In this document: positions 20,893 through 38,848 of the stretch, one piece after another
How the letters are laid out: the number at the start of each line of letters is the position of its first letter
Position numbering within the stretch: the first letter of the stretch is position 1
Notes under the pieces: model-generated
Seen by the model: the letters and a program-made list of their open reading frames with translations, nothing else
The model's database searches: none
Told to the model about the DNA's origin: nothing
Position numbers and translations under genes: made by a program
NCBI RefSeq assembly: GCF_025698965.1
Contig: NZ_JAILWL010000001.1
Coordinates: 1 to 61,416 of the forward strand
Length of the DNA: 61,416 nt
Reading direction: 5' to 3'
DNA from: Roseibium sp.
GTDB taxonomy: Bacteria > Pseudomonadota > Alphaproteobacteria > Rhizobiales > Stappiaceae

Positions 20893-23800
20893 GTGAGGGC
20901 GCGCCAGCGCATTCTGCCGATCCGCCGCCAGTACAACAAATGGGTCAACAACCAGACCCTGGAAGATTATGCACTGCGGTTCACGGCAAAAAGCGCGCGC
21001 CGCTTTTCATCCCGCGCCATTTCGCAGACCGCCATCGGCGCAATTTCGTTTTTGGCGCTTGAGGCGATCGGTGGAGCGATCACGCTGTCCCACGGGACCG
21101 CAAATGCATTTCTTGCCATTCTGGTCGGCAGTCTTGTGCTGCTTGTTGTCGGTCTGCCGATCAGCCGTTATGCCATGCGTTACGGCGTCGATATCGACCT
21201 CCTGACACGTGGTGCGGGTTTTGGTTATATCGGCTCGACAATCACTTCGCTGATTTATGCCAGTTTCACCTTCATCCTGTTTGCGATCGAGGCTTCGATC
21301 ATGTCGAGCGCCCTGGAATTCGCTTTCGGCGTTCCACTCTGGATCGGCTACATCATCAGTGCGGTGGCAGTGATTCCGCTGGTGACCCACGGCATAACCT
21401 GGATCAGTCGTTTTCAGCTGGCCACACAACCCTTCTGGATCATCCTCAACGTACTTCCGTTCGTTTTCATCGCGTTCACCGACTGGCAGGCGGTTGGAGA
21501 CTGGTTGAGTTTTTCCGGAATAGATCCCGAAACACAGGCACCCAGCAGTCAGCCCGGCGGATGGCCCAGCATCAATCTCATCAGCTTCGGCGCCGCGTCG
21601 GCCGTGATCCTGGCCCTGATGGCTCAAATTGGCGAGCAGGTCGATTTTCTTCGCTTCCTGCCAGCACAGGATTTTGCCCGGCGCCGTCATCGCCTGGCCT
21701 TGTTTCTGGCTGGACCGGGCTGGGTCATTCTCGGGGCACCGAAGATGATTGCCGGCTCGTTTCTGGCGGTGCTCGTCTTGTCGCACGGTGTGCCTGTGGA
21801 ACACGCGGACGAACCTTCGCGAATGTATGCCGTCGCCTTCGGTTACATGATCCCAAGTGAGACGGTGGTCCTGTTGTTGATGGCTGCATTCGTGGTGGTG
21901 GCACAGTTGAAGATCAACGTGATGAATGCCTATGCGGGATCATTGGCGTGGTCGAACTTCTTTTCCCGCCTGACCCATTCCCATCCGGGTCGGGTTGTCT
22001 GGCTGGTTTTCAATGTCGGCATCGCGCTGCTTCTGATGGAGCTGGGTATCTATAGCTTGCTGGAAGAAACCCTTGGGGTCTTTTCCATAATCGCCATGGC
22101 GTGGCTTTCCGCCATTTCCGCAGACCTCTTTATCAACAAACCTCTTGGCTTGTCGCCTCCGGGCATCGAGTTCAAGCGAGCCCATCTATATGACATCAAC
22201 CCGGTTGGCACAGGAGCAATGCTGCTTGCGACCTGCCTCGCACTGGCAGCCCACTTCGGTCAGTTCGGCGATGTCGCTGCAGCACTCGCGACATTCCTGG
22301 CCATGGTCGTCGCATTTGTTGCGGCACCTCTGATTGCCATTGCCACCAAGGGCAGGTTTTATCTGGCTCGCAAGCCGCGACGCAGCTGGCAGGATGTGAA
22401 CCAGATTGCATGTTCAATTTGTGAAAATCCGTTTGAGCCTGAAGATATGGCTTATTGTCCGGCCTACCAGGCGCCGATCTGTTCGCTTTGCTGTTCACTG
22501 GATGCCCGCTGCCACGATTCCTGCAAACCCAAGGCCCGGATTTCCTATCAGTTGGGATCCGTCGCAGGTCGGTTTTTGCCCGAACGCGCACTCGTCCATT
22601 TGCGCTCCCGTCTGGGGCGCTACGCTTTGTCCTCCTTGGTCTCAGTTGCCGGAATAGGACTTGTTCTGTGGATCATCTACGCACAGGCAGCCAGCCGGTT
22701 AGGAGACCCTACCGGTCTGATCGGCCAGACCGTCACTCTGATCTTCTTCGTGTTTGCCATTGTGGCTGGAATTTCCTGCTGGTTTCTTGTACTCGCCCAC
22801 GACACGAGGCGGGTGGCAGAAGAGGAGTCAGCCCGTCAAAACGCGTTGTTGCAAAGAGAGATCGATGCCCACAGCGCGACCGATGCGGCACTACAGAAAG
22901 CCAAGGAAGACGCCGAGGCGGCAAACCTGGCCAAGAGCCGGTATGTCGTTGGTCTTTCCCACGAACTCAGAACACCTTTGAACGCGGTTATGGGATATGC
23001 GCAGGTTCTGGAGCGCGATGAGACTTTGCCGCTGACGCGCAAACCTGCGGTCAGCACAATTCGGCGTAGCGCGGAGCACTTGTCGGGACTTATTGACGGC
23101 CTGTTGGACATTTCCCGCATCGAAGCCGGTCGACTGCAGATCTATTCCAACGAGATTAACATTCTCGAATTCCTGGACCAGATCGTCGACATGTTCCGGA
23201 TGCAGGCGGTGGCCAAGGGACTTGAATTCGACTACGTACGGGCTGCCAATCTGCCGATCTTTGTCAGAACGGATGAAAAACGTCTTCGGCAGATTCTGGT
23301 CAATTTATTATCCAATGCAATCAAGTTCACCAGTGAAGGCAAGGTGTCCCTCACGGTCCGGTATCGGTCACAGGTCGCCAGCTTCGTTGTGTCTGACAGT
23401 GGCCCCGGGATCGAACTGGCCGAACAACACAAGATATTCGAACCCTTTGGAAGGAGCCGTTCGGCTGGCGTGAACCAAACACCAGGACTGGGGTTGGGAC
23501 TAACCATTACCAAGTTGCTGACCGAGACCATGGGCGGTGCAATCGCGGTTGCCAGTGAGCAGGGAACGGGCGCTTCATTCGAAGTGCGACTGATGCTTGC
23601 AGCCGTTGATCGTCCGGCCGACACAATTCGTCTCGACAGGCAAGTGCGGGGTTATGAGGGGCCGCGCAGGACAATTGCCGTCATAGACGACAACCCCGAT
23701 CACAGGTCGCTCGTAAGCGATATCCTGAAGCCTCTTGGCTTTGCGGTGCTGGGCGCGGAAAGCGGCGCAAGTTGCCTTGAAACCGTTTGCTGCCTGAAAC

Positions 23801-32790: not shown

Positions 32791-33633
32791 ATGTTTTCGA
32801 AAGTTGCGTTTGAGGCCATTGGTCAGGTAACCGGGCCTGAAATCGTTGACCCGCTTGCCGCTGGCGAAAAAGTCTTCCTGTTCGATCTGGATGTGCTTGT
32901 CGCGAGCCGTTTCGGTCGGATGGATCATGAATTTGCCGGCTATGTACGGGAATTTGCCCGTTCACATCCATGCTACCTGCTGACATCGGCCAACTACTCT
33001 GAGGTAATGTCGCGTCTGCCCGGGTCCGTCCGCCATGCCTTTGAAGGTGTGTTTGCCTCGTGCGGTACAGAGCTTTGGGTGAACAATGAAATACTGATCC
33101 GTCACGAACACCTTTTCTCCGACGATCTTTATGAGTTTGTCGCCAAGGCGGTCCAGCAAAGCGCCTATTCCGGGAAGGAAGCACCATTGCTGGAATGCGG
33201 GTCTGCCACCCTTCGTTTGAGCCTTGCCGGCATTCGAAGCACGGCCGGTCAACAAATGGCCTATCGGCGCTGGGAGAGAGAACATCGTGAACTTGATGTG
33301 ATTGCAGATGAAATGAAGGCCCGTTTTCCGGATCACACGGTATGCCGGGACAGCGATATCAGCCTGATGATCACACCCAATACTTTCACCAGTGCCCGGG
33401 TTCATGAACATATCCTGAAACGCCACAAGGCATCGCGCCTGATTGCCTATTTCGCCAACCGATCCGCAGGTGGATTTGCAAAACCGCTCTGCGACGCCCT
33501 GTTGACCTCGGATGTCGTGTCGACAGTGAATGGGCCGAGCGATGTTAGCCAGTTGCTCAGCTATGAAATGCGCTCAGCTCCTGATGCCGGTCAACGGCCG
33601 CACACCATGAACCGGATGCTTCAGGAGGCTTGA
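32791..33633 (+). CDS. HAD-IIB protein resembling eukaryotic/phage-type phosphomannomutase, motifs degenerate
   Basis: VFLFDLDVLVASR (motif I DxD), YLLTSANY (motif II-like) and FASCGTELW; motif IV acidic residues not visible (YFANRSAGG). Confidence 0.6.
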   Translation: MFSKVAFEAIGQVTGPEIVDPLAAGEKVFLFDLDVLVASRFGRMDHEFAGYVREFARSHPCYLLTSANYSEVMSRLPGSVRHAFEGVFASCGTELWVNNEILIRHEHLFSDDLYEFVAKAVQQSAYSGKEAPLLECGSATLRLSLAGIRSTAGQQMAYRRWEREHRELDVIADEMKARFPDHTVCRDSDISLMITPNTFTSARVHEHILKRHKASRLIAYFANRSAGGFAKPLCDALLTSDVVSTVNGPSDVSQLLSYEMRSAPDAGQRPHTMNRMLQEA

Positions 33634-34226: not shown

Positions 34227-34375
34227 GAAGGGAAACGATGGGGCCTTTCCCTTCTTGAATTCGGTGCCGGGATTTCACCGGCTGCGGCGGGGTGGCCTCT
34301 GACGCGATTTCCCCTCGCGCCTAGGGCCTGAAGTCCGCCCTTCAGATGGCCTACTTCTGAAACTCTTTCCCCGAC
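34227..34375. ncRNA. candidate structured non-coding RNA / multi-hairpin intergenic element
   Basis: Four consecutive hairpins: 34227-34254, 34266-34282, 34303-34319, 34322-34353. G-U extensions favour the minus strand; no convincing ORF. Confidence 0.3.
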
Positions 34376-34540
34376 TGTTTCTCTATGCCAGGGCCGTCAA
34401 CGCCTCAGTTTCGCACGGGATTTATGTGACTCAGTTCGTGCTTGCATTGTTGTTTACCATACGTTAAGAAAGTAGACAAGGTTCGTGACTCAATTTATGA
34501 AGAAAAAACTCTTCGGAAATTCGAGAAAAACGGACCTGCT

Positions 34541-35188
34541 GTGATCGAGCACAACGACGAAAGAGAATGGGAAACGCGCGTGTACGGCTATGCCCGCGTC
34601 AGCACAGAAGACCAGAACCTTGATATGCAGATCCGCGCCCTCAACGATTACGGATGCTCCTATATCTTCAAGGAAAAACGGTCTGCGTACGGGGTGAAGC
34701 GCAAACAGCTTGAATGGCTAAAAAAGAGCCTAGCGCCGGGTGATACGCTTGTTGTCTGGAAGCTGGATCGGTTGGGCCGTGATGTCGGTGAACTGATCAC
34801 GTTCATGGCAATGTTGAAGAAGAAAGAAGTGAACTTCGTCAGCCTGAATGATCAGATTGATACCCGTACGGCCATGGGAAACTTCATGTTTCATCTGTTG
34901 GCGTCATTGGCGCAGTTGGAACGCGATCTGGTAGCGGAACGAACTAGGGCAGGGATGGACGCAGCTCGTAAGCGCGGTTGGCATCCGGGGCCGGAAACAC
35001 TCATTAAGCGGTTGGAGCGGGAAGACCCGAAGCAGCTCAAGGCGCTGCGGAAAGACATCGCGGACCCGAAAATGTCTTGGCGAGCACTCCATAAGAAGTA
35101 TGGTTATGCAGTTGCAACTCTACGGCGACACTTTGAAGGTGAGCGCAAAGAGGCATTGGCCAAGTTAGCCGAATTGGATGAAGAATGA
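34541..35188 (+). CDS. small serine recombinase (resolvase/invertase family, C-terminal HTH)
   Basis: Catalytic YGYARVSTEDQN, GDTLVVWKLDRLGR, IDTRTAMGNFMF, ERDLVAERTRAGMDAARKRG; C-terminal HTH (MSWRALHKKYGYAVATLRRHF). Start uncertain (GTG 34541). Confidence 0.93.
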   Translation: MIEHNDEREWETRVYGYARVSTEDQNLDMQIRALNDYGCSYIFKEKRSAYGVKRKQLEWLKKSLAPGDTLVVWKLDRLGRDVGELITFMAMLKKKEVNFVSLNDQIDTRTAMGNFMFHLLASLAQLERDLVAERTRAGMDAARKRGWHPGPETLIKRLEREDPKQLKALRKDIADPKMSWRALHKKYGYAVATLRRHFEGERKEALAKLAELDEE

Positions 35189-35192
35189 ATAG

Positions 35193-35870
35193 GTGGCAGA
35201 GTTGTTAGGCGCATTTACTTCTAGCACGTCAGGCCTGCTGGCGCTCGGTGCAATGTTTTTCGGCGTAGTTGCATTGCTTCTAGGAGGATTTGCCGCCGCG
35301 ATTAGAGATAAAGAAAGTGCTGATGCGGAAAGCGCTTATCAAGCAAAACTAGACCAGAAAACCGACAAGATAACCGTATTGCAGGACGAAATTAGTTCTC
35401 TGCAAAGTGAGACTATTAAGATGATCACTGGAGGCGATTCATTTCCTGTGGTGAATTTGGTGCAACACCCTAAACTCGGGATGGGTAAGTTCTCCCCCGA
35501 GATTTGGGTTTCTGGGGCTTACCACCTCAGAAACGTGAAAGTCTCAATCACTATAGTAAGTGGGGCTGAGACCAATAAATATAGCTTTGAAGAAGTAAGT
35601 CTTCGTGCTTATGGCGGATTGCCTTTTGATCTTATTGTAAACGCCGCAGCGGAGGGTGGCGCTACTTTGAGTGTTCGGACATCTGCGGAAAATGGAACTT
35701 GGTACCAAAAGATCGACTTCCGGAAAGCCGACGACGGACGGTTCCAGTTCAAGACAAAGATTGTTCGTTTTGGTCACCCTCAAACGACAGTTCTTAAGAA
35801 GGACTTCGACGAGGACCTTAGCTTTGGTTCCATTGACGAAATGAAGCGGTCCCCGACGTTTGTACAATAA
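35193..35870 (+). CDS. hypothetical membrane-anchored protein (cargo)
   Basis: N-terminal TM helix, coiled-coil-like stretch and beta-rich C-terminus; its stop TAA lies in ATAAGGAGCC. Confidence 0.7.
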   Translation: MAELLGAFTSSTSGLLALGAMFFGVVALLLGGFAAAIRDKESADAESAYQAKLDQKTDKITVLQDEISSLQSETIKMITGGDSFPVVNLVQHPKLGMGKFSPEIWVSGAYHLRNVKVSITIVSGAETNKYSFEEVSLRAYGGLPFDLIVNAAAEGGATLSVRTSAENGTWYQKIDFRKADDGRFQFKTKIVRFGHPQTTVLKKDFDEDLSFGSIDEMKRSPTFVQ

Positions 35871-35876
35871 GGAGCC
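35867..35876 (+). repeat. partial copy of the element right-end motif
   Basis: ATAAGGAGCC at a gene junction. Confidence 0.55.
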
Positions 35877-35882
35877 GAGGTG

Positions 35883-36101
35883 ATGGGAAAAACGTTCCAG
35901 GTTCTCGATTTCGAGGATAGCGGCATCCACGGAATTGCGATTGCACCGATGAAAGATCGTTTGAGCGTAAACTGCACGAGCGATGGTGAGATTGATGCTG
36001 CAATCCAGAACCTGAAAGATGATGCGGACCGTATTGCCAAGGTCATGAAACGCGAACTTCGAAAGAGGAAGAAACAGCCTCTTTTCGGTCGTGACTCATA
36101 G
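35883..36101 (+). CDS. hypothetical protein (~72 aa, cargo)
   Basis: AAGGAG/GAGG RBS; ends ...GRDS* inside the repeat motif. Confidence 0.65.
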   Translation: MGKTFQVLDFEDSGIHGIAIAPMKDRLSVNCTSDGEIDAAIQNLKDDADRIAKVMKRELRKRKKQPLFGRDS

Positions 36102-36106
36102 GAGCC
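36090..36106 (+). repeat. copy of the element right-end motif
   Basis: CGTGACTCATAGGAGCC, one A shorter than the terminal copy. Confidence 0.75.
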
Positions 36107-36149
36107 TGTGAGTTGCTTGCAAATCATGGAACTAAGGAGAGTTGTAGTT

Positions 36150-36587
36150 GTGAGCGTTTGGGCAAAAGTAGAAGGCGTAGGCGGCCTAATATCCGGGGTT
36201 GCAGCATTTATCGTTGCTGGAGTTGCAATTTATCAGGCAAGTACCGCAAATCAAAAAACTGATGAACTAATAGAGAATTACAACAAGACCTTTTTCGCAA
36301 AAAATAGTGGTTTCAATAAATTGTTTCTTACTCCTGTTCGAGAGGAAAAAGTACTTACTCTTATGAACTCATTTGAAAGAGTAAACTGGGCGCCAATGAC
36401 CGTGGCGGAGTTGTGGGAGGCCGAAGAGGCTGCCGAGTTGGGGGTGAGTAAGCAAGAATTCATTCAGATCATAAGGGCAGGCTTCGGCATGGGCGTACTT
36501 AGGGAGGTCTTTCCAAGGTCAGGAGAGAAGATAGAGCGCACTGCGATTGGCAAAATTGAGTGGCGACCTGTGTTTCGCATAAATTAG
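36150..36587 (+). CDS. hypothetical membrane protein (cargo)
   Basis: N-terminal TM helix (GLISGVAAFIVAGVAIY) and possible wHTH-like C-terminus. Start uncertain (36108/36126/36150; AAGGAG precedes GTG 36150). Confidence 0.6.
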   Translation: MSVWAKVEGVGGLISGVAAFIVAGVAIYQASTANQKTDELIENYNKTFFAKNSGFNKLFLTPVREEKVLTLMNSFERVNWAPMTVAELWEAEEAAELGVSKQEFIQIIRAGFGMGVLREVFPRSGEKIERTAIGKIEWRPVFRIN

Positions 36588-36724
36588 TAGTTCGGAAAGT
36601 CAGGTAGAAACTAGGGAGGCCGTTGCAGCTATGCCCGGTGGTGACTGGAACCTAGCCGAAGCCAATGAGCGCTTTGGCGGATCTGGTCGAGCTGGTGGCA
36701 GGAAGAAAAAGTAGGTTTTTTGTT

Positions 36725-37174
36725 ATGGCTTTATCGGAATATTGGAAGAGTATAATTGCCAACACAGTTCCAATACTGGTTGGTGGAGGTTTGGTAGTTG
36801 GTGGTTTCGATTATCTAACGAAAGATCGCGGGCACGACATTGAGATGGTCAAGATAGGTGTCCAAATCCTTAGAGTGGATCCAAATAAAAATCCAGAAAT
36901 TGGAGATGCTGGGCGCGAATGGGCGATGCGTCTCATAAATCGTTATTCTGGCGAATCGCTTACGGTATCAGAAATGGATCAACTCAGAACTTCTCCCATT
37001 GTGGATTGGTACAATGATAACACCCCGAACAGCGTCTTGTATGGTGCGGGCTACAAACGGATTACTCCTAGCAAGGCGACCGCTCAATTCATTTGGGAGA
37101 ATGATAAAGAACTCGTTGATCAGATAGCAGCTCACAATCTCCAATGTGAAAAAGATGCGAGTTGTCTTGAATGA
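36725..37174 (+). CDS. hypothetical membrane protein (cargo)
   Basis: N-terminal TM helix (IIANTVPILVGGGLVVGGF); stop TGA is the first triplet of TGACTCATAAGGAGC. Start 36725 or 36665. Confidence 0.6.
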   Translation: MALSEYWKSIIANTVPILVGGGLVVGGFDYLTKDRGHDIEMVKIGVQILRVDPNKNPEIGDAGREWAMRLINRYSGESLTVSEMDQLRTSPIVDWYNDNTPNSVLYGAGYKRITPSKATAQFIWENDKELVDQIAAHNLQCEKDASCLE

Positions 37175-37186
37175 CTCATAAGGAGC
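37172..37186 (+). repeat. copy of the element right-end motif
   Basis: TGACTCATAAGGAGC, 15/15 identical to the terminal copy. Confidence 0.8.
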
Positions 37187-37190
37187 GGAC

Positions 37191-37364
37191 ATGTCTGACG
37201 ATAGCGTGAACCATGACCATTTGGTCGGCAGATCGTGGTCTGCATATAGCGCGATGATCAACGAAGCGCAGGCACTCGAAAACACAGCTCAGCGACTACG
37301 TGAGCGGGCAGCAGAATTGCACTTGGTTTTAGACCCGCCTGCTGAAAAAGAACGTGACTCATAA
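37191..37364 (+). CDS. hypothetical protein (57 aa, cargo; absent from the ORF track)
   Basis: MSDDSVNHDHLVGRSWSAYSAMINEAQALENTAQRLRERAAELHLVLDPPAEKERDS. RBS comes from the motif copy at 37172 and the stop from the copy at 37353. Confidence 0.6.
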   Translation: MSDDSVNHDHLVGRSWSAYSAMINEAQALENTAQRLRERAAELHLVLDPPAEKERDS

Positions 37365-37370
37365 GGAGCC
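37353..37370 (+). repeat. terminal right-end (attR-like) motif
   Basis: CGTGACTCATAAGGAGCC; host-like GC-rich sequence (stop of the convergent regulator at 37373) resumes immediately after. Confidence 0.8.
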
Positions 37371-37372
37371 CT

Positions 37373-38848
37373 CTACAGCTCCGCCTCCGAAAGTTCCGCT
37401 TCCTCATCCTCATCACTCTCACCATCCTGCGCTGCCCAGATTTCCTTCTTGCGGTAGAGCGTCGACGGGCTGACCTGAAGGACGCGGGCGGTCTTCGGCA
37501 GGCTGCCGCCGCACGCGTCTATGGTTGCCTCGATCATTTGCCGTTCCAGCGTGTCGAACGACTGACCGAGTGCGAGGGTCAGGCTGGGCCAGGAACCGCT
37601 TGCCGCCGCCGCGACAGGGGTGATGCCTTGCTGCGGTGAGGGGACCTGCAGCGGAACGGACCCGGAGTTTCGCGATGCGGAGGGAACGCGCCCCTGAAGC
37701 GTCGACAACATGTCCACATCAACGATTGGACCTTCGTTCAGGACAACAAGATTGCGGATTGTATTTTGCATCTCCCGGACGTTTCCAGCCCAGGCGTGGG
37801 CCATCAGCGCTTCTTCCGCTTCCACGGAAAATCCGTCGAACTGTTTCCCTTCCTCTGACGCGAATTGCGTCAGGAAATGCCGGGCGAGTTCGAGAATATC
37901 CGCCCCGCGCGCCCTGAGCGGAGGTAGTCCGATCGGCAGGACATGAAGCCGGTAGTAAAGATCCTCTCGGAAACGGTTGGCTTCAACCTCTTCCAGCGGA
38001 TCCCGGTTGGTCGCGCAGACAATGCGCACATCGATTTTCTTCAGGCTGTCGCTGCCGACTTTCTGGATCGTGCCGCTCTGCAAGAACCGCAGCAGTTTGG
38101 CCTGAAGGTTCAGCTCCAGTTCACAGATTTCGTCCAGAAACAGTGTACCGCCGTCAGCGCGGGCGGCCGCTCCGTCGCGGTCTGACGTTGCACCGGTAAA
38201 GGCACCTTTGACGTGACCGAAGATCTCCGATTCAATCAGGTCTTTCGGGATGGCCGCGCAATTGAGCGGGATAAAGGGCCGCTTGGCCCGCGGGCTGGAT
38301 TTGTGGATGGCCTCCGCGCAGACTTCCTTGCCCGTTCCGCTTTCACCGGTAATGAAAACAGAAGCATTGGAGCGGGCCACGCTTTCAATCATCTTGTAAA
38401 CCGCGGTCATCGGCAGGGAAGACCCGACAAACCCGTGATGTGCCTTGGGATTTGACGGCTGCCTGACCTCCTCGACAACTTCGGTCAGGGTTTCACGCTC
38501 AAGGGCATTTCTTGTGGTGGTCACCAGCCGTTCCTCGGCAACGGGTTTGACGAGGAAGTCGTAGGCACCGGCCTGCATGGCATCGACGGCGGTCTTGATC
38601 GAGCCGGAGCTGGTGACCACGACCACGGTCACCGGGAGTTGCTCTTCCCGAATGGTGCTGAGCACCTCCAGCCCGTTCATATCCGGCAATTGCAGATCCA
38701 GGAGTACGACGCTGACGCCGCCCTTGCGCAGCCGCTCGAGCGCCGCCTTGCCAGTCTCCACATGAAGCGTGTCAATGCCGGCCCGTGACAGATGGTGACC
38801 ATAGACGGTGGCCAGCGGCAGGGCGTCTTCAACAATCAGGACTTTCAA
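37373..38848 (-). CDS. sigma54-dependent response regulator (REC-AAA+-Fis HTH), LuxO-like
   Basis: LLDLQLPDMNG, GESGTGKE, GAFTGA, FREDLYYRL; C-terminal VSPSTLYRKKEIW resembles LuxO-type tails. Confidence 0.9.
   Translation of the reverse strand: MKVLIVEDALPLATVYGHHLSRAGIDTLHVETGKAALERLRKGGVSVVLLDLQLPDMNGLEVLSTIREEQLPVTVVVVTSSGSIKTAVDAMQAGAYDFLVKPVAEERLVTTTRNALERETLTEVVEEVRQPSNPKAHHGFVGSSLPMTAVYKMIESVARSNASVFITGESGTGKEVCAEAIHKSSPRAKRPFIPLNCAAIPKDLIESEIFGHVKGAFTGATSDRDGAAARADGGTLFLDEICELELNLQAKLLRFLQSGTIQKVGSDSLKKIDVRIVCATNRDPLEEVEANRFREDLYYRLHVLPIGLPPLRARGADILELARHFLTQFASEEGKQFDGFSVEAEEALMAHAWAGNVREMQNTIRNLVVLNEGPIVDVDMLSTLQGRVPSASRNSGSVPLQVPSPQQGITPVAAAASGSWPSLTLALGQSFDTLERQMIEATIDACGGSLPKTARVLQVSPSTLYRKKEIWAAQDGESDEDEEAELSEAEL

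What the first reader, a model, noticed from the sequence alone, without database searches (positions are those of the whole stretch)
35867..37370. Cassette-like array: the recombination-site motif recurs at gene junctions and supplies stop codons and ribosome-binding sites
Seen: the right-end motif occurs four times in the same orientation, always exactly at a gene end. The copies are ATAAGGAGCC (35867; TAA stop of the 225-aa ORF), CGTGACTCATAGGAGCC (36090; ORF ends RDS*), TGACTCATAAGGAGC (37172; TGA stop) and CGTGACTCATAAGGAGCC (37353; a 57-aa ORF again ends RDS*). The motif carries stops in two frames and an (AA)GGAG Shine-Dalgarno that precedes the next start (ATG 37191, ATG 35883). All cargo genes are co-oriented with the recombinase, and the copies are more degenerate nearer the recombinase. 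Inference: either an integron-like gene-capture platform run by a serine recombinase, or nested former attR ends left by repeated integrate-and-recapture cycles. Either way, alternative excision at each copy would give circles with variable cargo.
Basis: partly seen in the sequence, partly recalled or inferred. Interest (0 to 1): 0.8.

Follow-up and report, generated by a model that had tools for sequence, protein, structure and literature searches.

The report
Two-armed phage gene-cassette shuffling platform
This 3.1-kb insert belongs to a family of back-to-back arrays of small genes in Roseibium and other phages, in which genes swap places exactly at a five-base core (GGAGC in one arm, GGCCC in the other), likely moved by the resolvase-family enzyme at the head of the array, which would make it an integron-like system built from none of the integron's parts.

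Summary
The four copies are real. They are the best-preserved members of a degenerate junction site that defines gene cassettes. The insert (34241-37369) lies between two host genes that are adjacent in 15 relatives, and it ends at a junction core on each side. Related modules sit in Roseibium prophages, in chromosomal hot spots and in other phages: a resolvase-family gene (intact or catalytically dead), a co-oriented array with GGAGC cores and a divergent array with GGCCC cores (76 vs 0 and 29 vs 0). Shared cassettes have different neighbours in 24 of 24 comparisons, and homology switches at the 5-6-bp core. Two 98.7-100% identical cassettes occur as A-B and B-A in one genome, as a circular intermediate would give. 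Cassette shuffling is therefore well supported; the enzyme is inferred. A serine recombinase fits the 2-bp AG/CC difference and the left half-site layout. Against it: right halves are not symmetric, many head genes are dead, and many arrays have none. Not an integron (no IntI, no attC). Nested attR is not supported. Ten paper searches found no description. The scan held no look-alike, only an analogous Chloroflexota case.

The parts
34241..34245 (-). Left terminal junction core, GGCCC class; no left-arm cassettes are left in this copy; 21 bp past the NUDIX stop
   Evidence: Sequence; homology to L320 ends here; L324 and L065 have the same kind of site
34242..34426 (-). Non-coding leader of the (empty) left arm
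   Evidence: 86% identical over 185 bp to L320 13640-13823, where it precedes a left-arm gene; no Rfam match
34425..34500 (.). Central region: likely overlapping divergent promoters with two GTGACTCA boxes (34426, 34485), possible operators
   Evidence: Conserved from exactly 34425 in L021 and L065; promoter and operator roles are inference
34541..35188 (+). Small serine recombinase with intact YARVST and DRLGR motifs and a helical C-terminal domain
   Evidence: PF00239 E 2e-42; alignment; model matches Tn3 and gamma-delta resolvase, E 3e-14
35193..35870 (+). Cargo gene, 225 aa, hydrophobic N-terminus, no family; its 5' junction has no core
   Evidence: No Pfam, PHROG or PADLOC hit; only itself among near-length proteins; unnamed Atlas cluster
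35867..35876 (+). Junction 1 (core GGAGC 35871-35875): stop plus ribosome-binding site
35883..36101 (+). Cassette gene, 72 aa, core at both ends
   Evidence: Homolog in array L067
36090..36106 (+). Junction 2 (core 36101-36105), one base short between TGACTCA and the core
36150..36587 (+). Cassette gene, 145 aa (159 aa if read from 36108), no family
36589..36620 (+). Junction 3, imperfect (GGAGG at 36615) with the upstream TTCGGAAA element
   Evidence: Profile score; homology to the dead gene of L023 starts here
36616..36713 (+). 3' fragment of a catalytically dead resolvase-like head gene from another array
   Evidence: 83% identical to the end of L023's head gene; profile hit E 2e-4
36725..37174 (+). 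Cargo gene, probably 149 aa, no family
37172..37186 (+). Junction 4 (core 37182-37186)
37191..37364 (+). Cassette gene, 57 aa; predicted 183-bp single-cassette circle
   Evidence: Core at both ends; the circle is a prediction
37339..37370 (+). Right terminal junction (core 37365-37369), best-scoring site in the genome, 3 bp from the host regulator's stop
   Evidence: Top profile score in the genome
33635..34219 (+). Host NUDIX hydrolase, left flank
   Evidence: Pfam; adjacent to the regulator in 15 relatives
37373..38848 (-). Host sigma-54 response regulator, right flank
   Evidence: Pfam

Best explanation
The insert is a phage-derived, two-armed cassette array whose genes exchange at five-base cores, and the exchange is likely site-specific recombination by the small serine recombinase family that heads the arrays. 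A cassette runs from just after one core (spacer, start codon) to the next core, and carries in its own 3' end a half-site (best form GTGACTCATAA, plus an A-rich element about 25 bases upstream) that includes its stop codon; the core doubles as the next gene's ribosome-binding site (shown). Recombination between two like cores would excise one or more cassettes as a circle that re-enters at any like core, in the same or another array (inferred). The cores differ only in their central two bases (GG-AG-C, GG-CC-C), so a 2-bp serine-type crossover would keep the arms apart and protect the central promoters and head gene (inferred). Dead head genes would act as DNA-binding regulators, with intact enzymes such as this one working in trans (inferred). 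The window copy is a phage-free remnant joined to host DNA at its two outermost cores.
For: Arm segregation in 15 loci, any central pair allowed: 76 of 103 right-arm genes have GG-AG-C and none GG-CC-C; 29 of 51 left-arm genes have GG-CC-C and none GG-AG-C; host genes 121 and 16 of 1755. Homologous cassettes have different neighbours in 24 of 24 junction comparisons; identity is 0.38 before and 0.74 after 5' cores, 0.76 before and 0.36 after 3' cores. The switch lies within positions -1 to +4. Cassettes of 243 and 311 bp, 100% and 98.7% identical, occur as A-B and B-A in one genome with only 6-8 shared bases at their outer junctions; a 212-bp exact tandem duplicate is bounded by GGCCC. Red-beta needs 23-27 bp of exact pairing (PMC3945230, passage). 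TGACTC sits at a fixed -10 in 29 of 110 junctions against 1 of 268 host GGAGC sites, with upstream stops in all three frames. The left half reads motif, A/T-rich triplet, 2 bp, central pair, as in the Gin, Hin and Tn3 cores of PMC3985619 Table 1. A resolvase-family gene or fragment was found in 23 of 43 loci (partly selected for it). The dead family has the resolvase fold. The 7 intact head enzymes fall in one 52-row group of a 156-row tree (support 86, not firm). The same layout occurs in MW202785.1, L138 and L383.
Against: Right halves are not inverted repeats of left halves, unlike canonical serine sites. Eight of the 23 loci have only an intact dead head gene and 5 only a dead fragment; 20 of 43 have none in the stretch fetched. 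Thirteen of 19 motif-bearing genomes have no close intact enzyme. The crossover cannot be narrowed below 5-6 bp except in two or three possibly mutated cases. Head proteins with unlike C-terminal domains share the same motif. Both cores overlap sequence that pairs with the 16S tail, so translation explains part of their conservation. No circle or read-level joint was seen; array limits and gene calls are my own.
Confidence: 0.55

Rival explanations
1. The junctions are conserved stop-plus-ribosome-binding linkers, and cassettes exchange by microhomology or relaxed homologous recombination (phage Erf/RecT or host enzymes), filtered by selection for translation. The resolvase-family head gene is a regulator of the divergent promoters.
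For: Both cores overlap anti-SD-pairing sequence. Dead head genes are far more diverse than intact ones (339 clusters at 50% identity). Erf is encoded by L307 and MW202785.1. Identity-dependent joining would also keep the two classes apart. PeSL linkers shuffle genes and make mini-circles without a known site-specific enzyme (PMC2839356, Discussion).
Against: Only 6-8 shared bases at fresh junctions, well under the 23-27 bp reported for Red-beta. The final C of GGAGC and the CCC of GGCCC do not pair with the 16S tail. The fixed-distance upstream elements are absent from host GGAGC sites. Terminal copies with no start codon keep the full motif.
Confidence: 0.27
2. The exchange is site-specific but done by a tyrosine recombinase with a 5-6-bp overlap (the small catalytic-domain-only protein found near some arrays, the phage integrase, or host Xer), or by another host factor.
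For: The crossover window is 5-6 bp. A 185-197-aa tyrosine recombinase lies near arrays L048, L067, L304 and L312. Phage integrases adjoin several arrays.
Against: The small protein is near only 4 array loci, also occurs at two loci with no array seen (L045, L061) and has only 28-29% hits in the window's genome. No attC-like fold, no paired inverted binding arms.
Confidence: 0.13
3. The copies are nested former attR ends left by repeated integration and recapture of one recombinase-bearing element.
For: The insert ends at the best-preserved copy, and copies are more degenerate near the recombinase in this window.
Against: Cassettes change order, duplicate and appear in other loci. The left end has a different core on the other strand. 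The polarity is weak in 15 arrays. Much cargo is phage-type rather than flanking host DNA.
Confidence: 0.05

Closest known systems
Integrons (IntI, attI, attC cassette arrays; defining features recalled)
   Same: Arrays of short single-gene cassettes, stop codon inside the site, variable order and content, arrays that persist without the recombinase, likely circular intermediates.
   Different: No IntI-type tyrosine recombinase at the head, no attC hairpin, two divergent arms with different cores, resolvase-family head gene, phage location.
PeSL cassettes of T4-type phages RB49 and phi1 (PMC2839356; abstract and Discussion read)
   Same: Short conserved junction elements that mark insertion, deletion and replacement of small phage genes; mini-circles.
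   Different: PeSLs are promoter plus stem-loop elements thought to recombine by homology, with no recombinase identified; here there is no stem-loop at the junction, the shared stretch is 5-8 bp, and there are two classes and a resolvase-family gene.
Start-associated sequences of cluster K mycobacteriophages (PMC3203893; passages read)
   Same: An asymmetric, ribosome-binding-site-like repeat just before start codons; its consensus contains the same GGAGCC.
   Different: The extended form has 17-bp inverted repeats; function unknown, recombination only suggested; no second class or resolvase in the passages read.
Small serine recombinases Gin, Hin, Tn3, gamma-delta (PMC3985619; passages and Table 1 read)
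   Same: Fold and catalytic motifs of the window enzyme; left half-site layout; 2-bp central difference between site classes.
   Different: Their sites are pseudo-symmetric and few; here they are one-sided, degenerate and many, in direct repeat between genes.
phiRSM integrase, a resolvase-type phage integrase (PMC4471427; passages read)
   Same: Precedent that a small serine recombinase can both integrate and excise in a phage.
   Different: One 13-base att site in a tRNA gene; no cassette array; no tRNA at this site.

Membership tests
Integron | IntI tyrosine recombinase next to the array | tested here: not met
   Head gene is PF00239; tyrosine recombinases near some arrays are phage-integrase types and absent here
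Integron | attC single-strand hairpin at each cassette end | tested here: not met
   DNA fold z of 110 junctions -0.05 and -0.12, host controls -0.37 and -0.40 (65-nt windows only); no Rfam match in 5 loci
Integron | Cassettes with fixed boundaries in variable order | tested here: met
Integron | Circular cassette intermediates | tested here: inconclusive
   A-B / B-A order fits a circle; not observed directly
PeSL linker system | Promoter plus stem-loop at each junction | tested here: not met
   No excess folding at junctions; promoters at junctions were not scanned
PeSL linker system | Exchange through a homologous patch of tens of bases | tested here: not met
   6-8 shared bases at fresh junctions
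SAS/ESAS | Asymmetric SD-like repeat before start codons | tested here: met
SAS/ESAS | 17-bp inverted repeats upstream (extended form) | tested here: inconclusive
   Profiles show one-sided motifs only; no dedicated search for upstream inverted repeats
Resolvase/invertase enzyme family (window protein) | Catalytic serine motif, DRLGR and resolvase fold | tested here: met
Resolvase/invertase site system | Pseudo-symmetric crossover site | tested here: not met
Resolvase/invertase site system | 2-bp crossover that must match | tested here: inconclusive
   Classes differ in 2 central bases and never mix; window mapped only to 5-6 bp
Resolvase/invertase site system | Cleavage and strand exchange by the enzyme at these sites | not testable with these tools
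   Needs a recombination assay

The most novel reading that the evidence does not exclude
Temperate phages of alphaproteobacteria carry a serine-recombinase gene-cassette platform with two orthogonal arms. One-sided sites that double as stop codon and ribosome-binding site let cassette circles move between phages and chromosomal hot spots, a 2-bp code assigns each gene to an arm, and a large family of dead resolvases controls arrays served in trans by the intact enzymes.
Probability: 0.5. Interest if true: 0.92.

Novelty: categorically new. Interest (0 to 1): 0.82.

Why it matters
How temperate phages gain and reorder small accessory genes exactly at gene borders is a long-standing question (linker-mediated, relaxed homologous or illegitimate recombination; PMC3945230 introduction, PMC2839356 discussion). 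Here the exchange point is mapped to five or six bases, comes in two classes that do not mix, and sits beside a candidate enzyme, so the question can be tested with a plasmid assay. If the serine enzyme is responsible, this is an integron analogue from a different recombinase family, a natural version of orthogonal-core gene assembly, and it gives a role to a family of over 300 unannotated dead resolvases. If the rival holds, it is still a sharply defined linker system and would rank as a new variant of the PeSL kind.

Tried and rejected
Base-level empty site: relatives are only about 71-76% identical and intergenic DNA does not align. Sequencing runs: none was listed, so no reads were laid. 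Generic repeat finder: mostly chance pairs. Metagenome and viral scans with the recombinase alignments returned mostly ordinary resolvases; 0 of 234 such loci had the strict motif, and 3 of 265 had three or more cores: L067 and L138 are arrays, L090 was not examined. Of the 18 viral loci from the degenerate pattern all had one match and most look like chance. L327 is a match inside a host gene. Dead-family profile: 0 of 301 order genomes; one strong hit among 401 class genomes; one search was spoiled by including the intact enzyme. No isolated-phage match for two dead-family queries; P0130 found no viral locus. attC-like folding, Rfam and site symmetry: negative. Defence cargo: 2 weak hits among 56 proteins, none in the window. 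Common stop/RBS junction genome-wide: rejected. Assembly artefact for the A-B / B-A pair: both junctions must exist in the DNA and copy A has 4 differences, but L028's record title says uncultured, so paths across repeats could be misjoined. The one-clade test of the tree did not finish. No complex prediction was run. Paper searches found no description of this system; the library lacks most subscription papers and no supplements were read.

Full report
Observation. The four copies are at the stated places and overlap stop codons. The long form occurs 3 times in the 6.37-Mb genome, all here. The short 35867 copy is not rare alone, and a 3-mismatch search was not above chance. The flanking NUDIX gene and sigma-54 regulator are adjacent in 15 of 19 fetched relative loci, the other four giving no NUDIX hit, so the 3.1 kb is an insert. 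Its cargo is 47% GC against 55% for the genome. Titles and protein names of close relatives point to Roseibium.

Anatomy. The insert starts at a GGCCC core on the minus strand (34241-34245). A 185-bp leader follows that is 86% identical to the leader of a left-arm gene in L320, then a central stretch with two GTGACTCA boxes shared with L021 and L065, then an intact small serine recombinase. Five unannotated genes follow, with a fragment of a second, dead resolvase-like gene that begins at an imperfect junction at 36615. The insert ends at the GGAGC core 3 bp from the host stop. No part is repeated elsewhere in the genome.

The family. The motif is in 19 of 132 family genomes, all in this genus, in none of the 60 from other genera, and never as the reversed control. 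The loci show one plan: a central resolvase-family gene, a co-oriented right array and a divergent left array of short genes. Many lie in prophages between lysis genes and the integrase or early operon. Others sit alone at chromosomal sites, with different cargo at the same site in different genomes and no insert in others (L322, L324, L366, L367). The plan also occurs outside the genus, with the cores but without TGACTCA: MW202785.1, a complete 40-kb phage record, L138 and L383. Of 43 loci screened, 7 have an intact enzyme, 3 a broken one, 8 an intact dead homolog, 5 a dead fragment only and 20 none (some were fetched because of the gene). The dead family lacks the catalytic serine and DRLGR, resembles the intact clade by profile (probability 88%), folds like gamma-delta and Tn3 resolvase and has 339 representatives at 50% identity.

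The site. In 15 loci with a head gene, allowing any central pair, right-arm genes have GG-AG-C in 76 of 103 and GG-CC-C in none; left-arm genes have GG-CC-C in 29 of 51 and GG-AG-C in none; 20 and 17 have no core. Host genes show 121 and 16 of 1755. Of 298 ORFs in 33 regions, 108 have a core at both ends: 76 AG-AG, 32 CC-CC, none mixed (largely the same fact). Upstream of the core, TGACTC is fixed at -10 in 29 of 110 non-redundant junctions (host 1 of 268) and a TTYRRAA element lies near -25 in 22 of 110 (host 2 of 268); CC-class left halves also fit the AG profile. Stops fall in all three frames. The right half is not an inverted repeat and there is no attC-like fold.

Shuffling. All 24 junction comparisons between homologous cassettes (60% or more identical, core in both) show different neighbours, with identity switching at the core. 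Among 37 DNA matches of 80% or more, 35 of the 74 ends passed my filter for a core with an identity switch; by my count 24 have the same core in both partners, and mismatches bound the switch to -1..+4. In genome G014, cassettes A (311 bp, 98.7%) and B (243 bp, 100%) read A-B in L023 and B-A in L028, with 6-8 shared bases at the outer junctions; a left-arm cassette (301 bp, 99.7%) is shared too. Excision of an A-B circle and re-entry through its inner core gives exactly this in two steps (inference). L067 has an exact 212-bp tandem duplicate bounded by GGCCC.

Mechanism. Shown: cassette limits, two classes, recent exchange, and a resolvase-family head gene in many arrays. Inferred: circles, and the enzyme. 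For a serine recombinase: the classes differ only in the central two bases; the left half has the layout of the Gin, Hin and Tn3 cores (PMC3985619, Table 1 and passages); AG and CC cannot match in either orientation, which would protect the centre; 6-8 bases are far below the 23-27 bp given for Red-beta (PMC3945230, passages); the 7 intact head enzymes group together, weakly; and a small serine recombinase can integrate and excise (PMC4471427, passages). Against: one-sided sites, many dead or missing head genes, 13 of 19 motif genomes without a close intact enzyme, and overlap of both cores with anti-SD pairing. I give 0.55 to the serine enzyme, 0.27 to linker microhomology, 0.13 to a tyrosine or host enzyme and 0.05 to nested attR. 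That this is a cassette-exchange system of some kind I put near 0.9.

Comparison and novelty. It works like an integron but fails the IntI and attC tests (features recalled). It resembles PeSL shuffling (PMC2839356, abstract and Discussion) and the SAS repeats (PMC3203893, passages), but lacks the stem-loop and long homology of the first and adds two classes and mapped exchange to the second. Ten searches (listings only, apart from the five papers named) found no account of it; supplements were not read and most subscription papers are not held. The scan's notes held no look-alike and one analogous Chloroflexota case. I file it as categorically new on the best explanation; under the main rival it would be a new variant of linker-mediated shuffling. 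Gene calls and array limits come from my own scripts and eye, kin genomes are not independent, and no bench or read evidence exists.

Noticed in passing
window 34428, 34487, 36093, 37173, 37356: TGACTCA contains GANTC, the CcrM methylation site (recalled). Five of the 7 GANTC sites in the insert are these motifs, and GANTC is depleted genome-wide (observed/expected 0.41). Methylation could time binding to replication.
   Followed up: partly
window 34227-34254: A 9-bp inverted repeat spans the left core, one arm on the host side and one on the mobile leader; terminator-like. Right ends in L322, L324 and L366 also abut a hairpin.
   Followed up: partly
L021 4486-4560; L322 9969-10103 and 10870-11002; L027 9025-9115; L318 6186-6277; L371 near 4540: Gene-less units with a long CAGCGG...CCGCTG hairpin just before the full motif; two 135-bp copies in L322 are bounded by cores. 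No Rfam match in L021 or L318.
   Followed up: partly
P0121-P0270; L023 6530-7138: Large unannotated family of resolvase-fold proteins without the catalytic serine, mostly with no Pfam or PHROG hit.
   Followed up: yes
L067 6801-7358; L048 1513-2106; L304; L312; L061; L045: Small tyrosine recombinase (185-197 aa, catalytic domain only) near some arrays; several broken pieces in L312.
   Followed up: partly
L320 7400-15600: Two complete head-gene units nested in one prophage end, with AG-class then CC-class cassettes on one strand.
   Followed up: partly
L027 and L364 (downstream of guanylate kinase); L317 and L329; L326 and L328: Further chromosomal sites with different inserts in near relatives; the arrays at such sites are rich in short membrane proteins.
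   Followed up: partly
L323 9393: One motif copy reads TGAGTCA in place of TGACTCA, the other form of the palindrome.
   Followed up: no
window 23395-23484: ARAGORN calls a 90-nt tRNA-Trp(cca) on the minus strand with the anticodon at position 35; long for its kind, not checked.
   Followed up: no
window 32791-33633: 280-aa ORF with no Pfam hit at E 0.1, upstream of the NUDIX gene.
   Followed up: no
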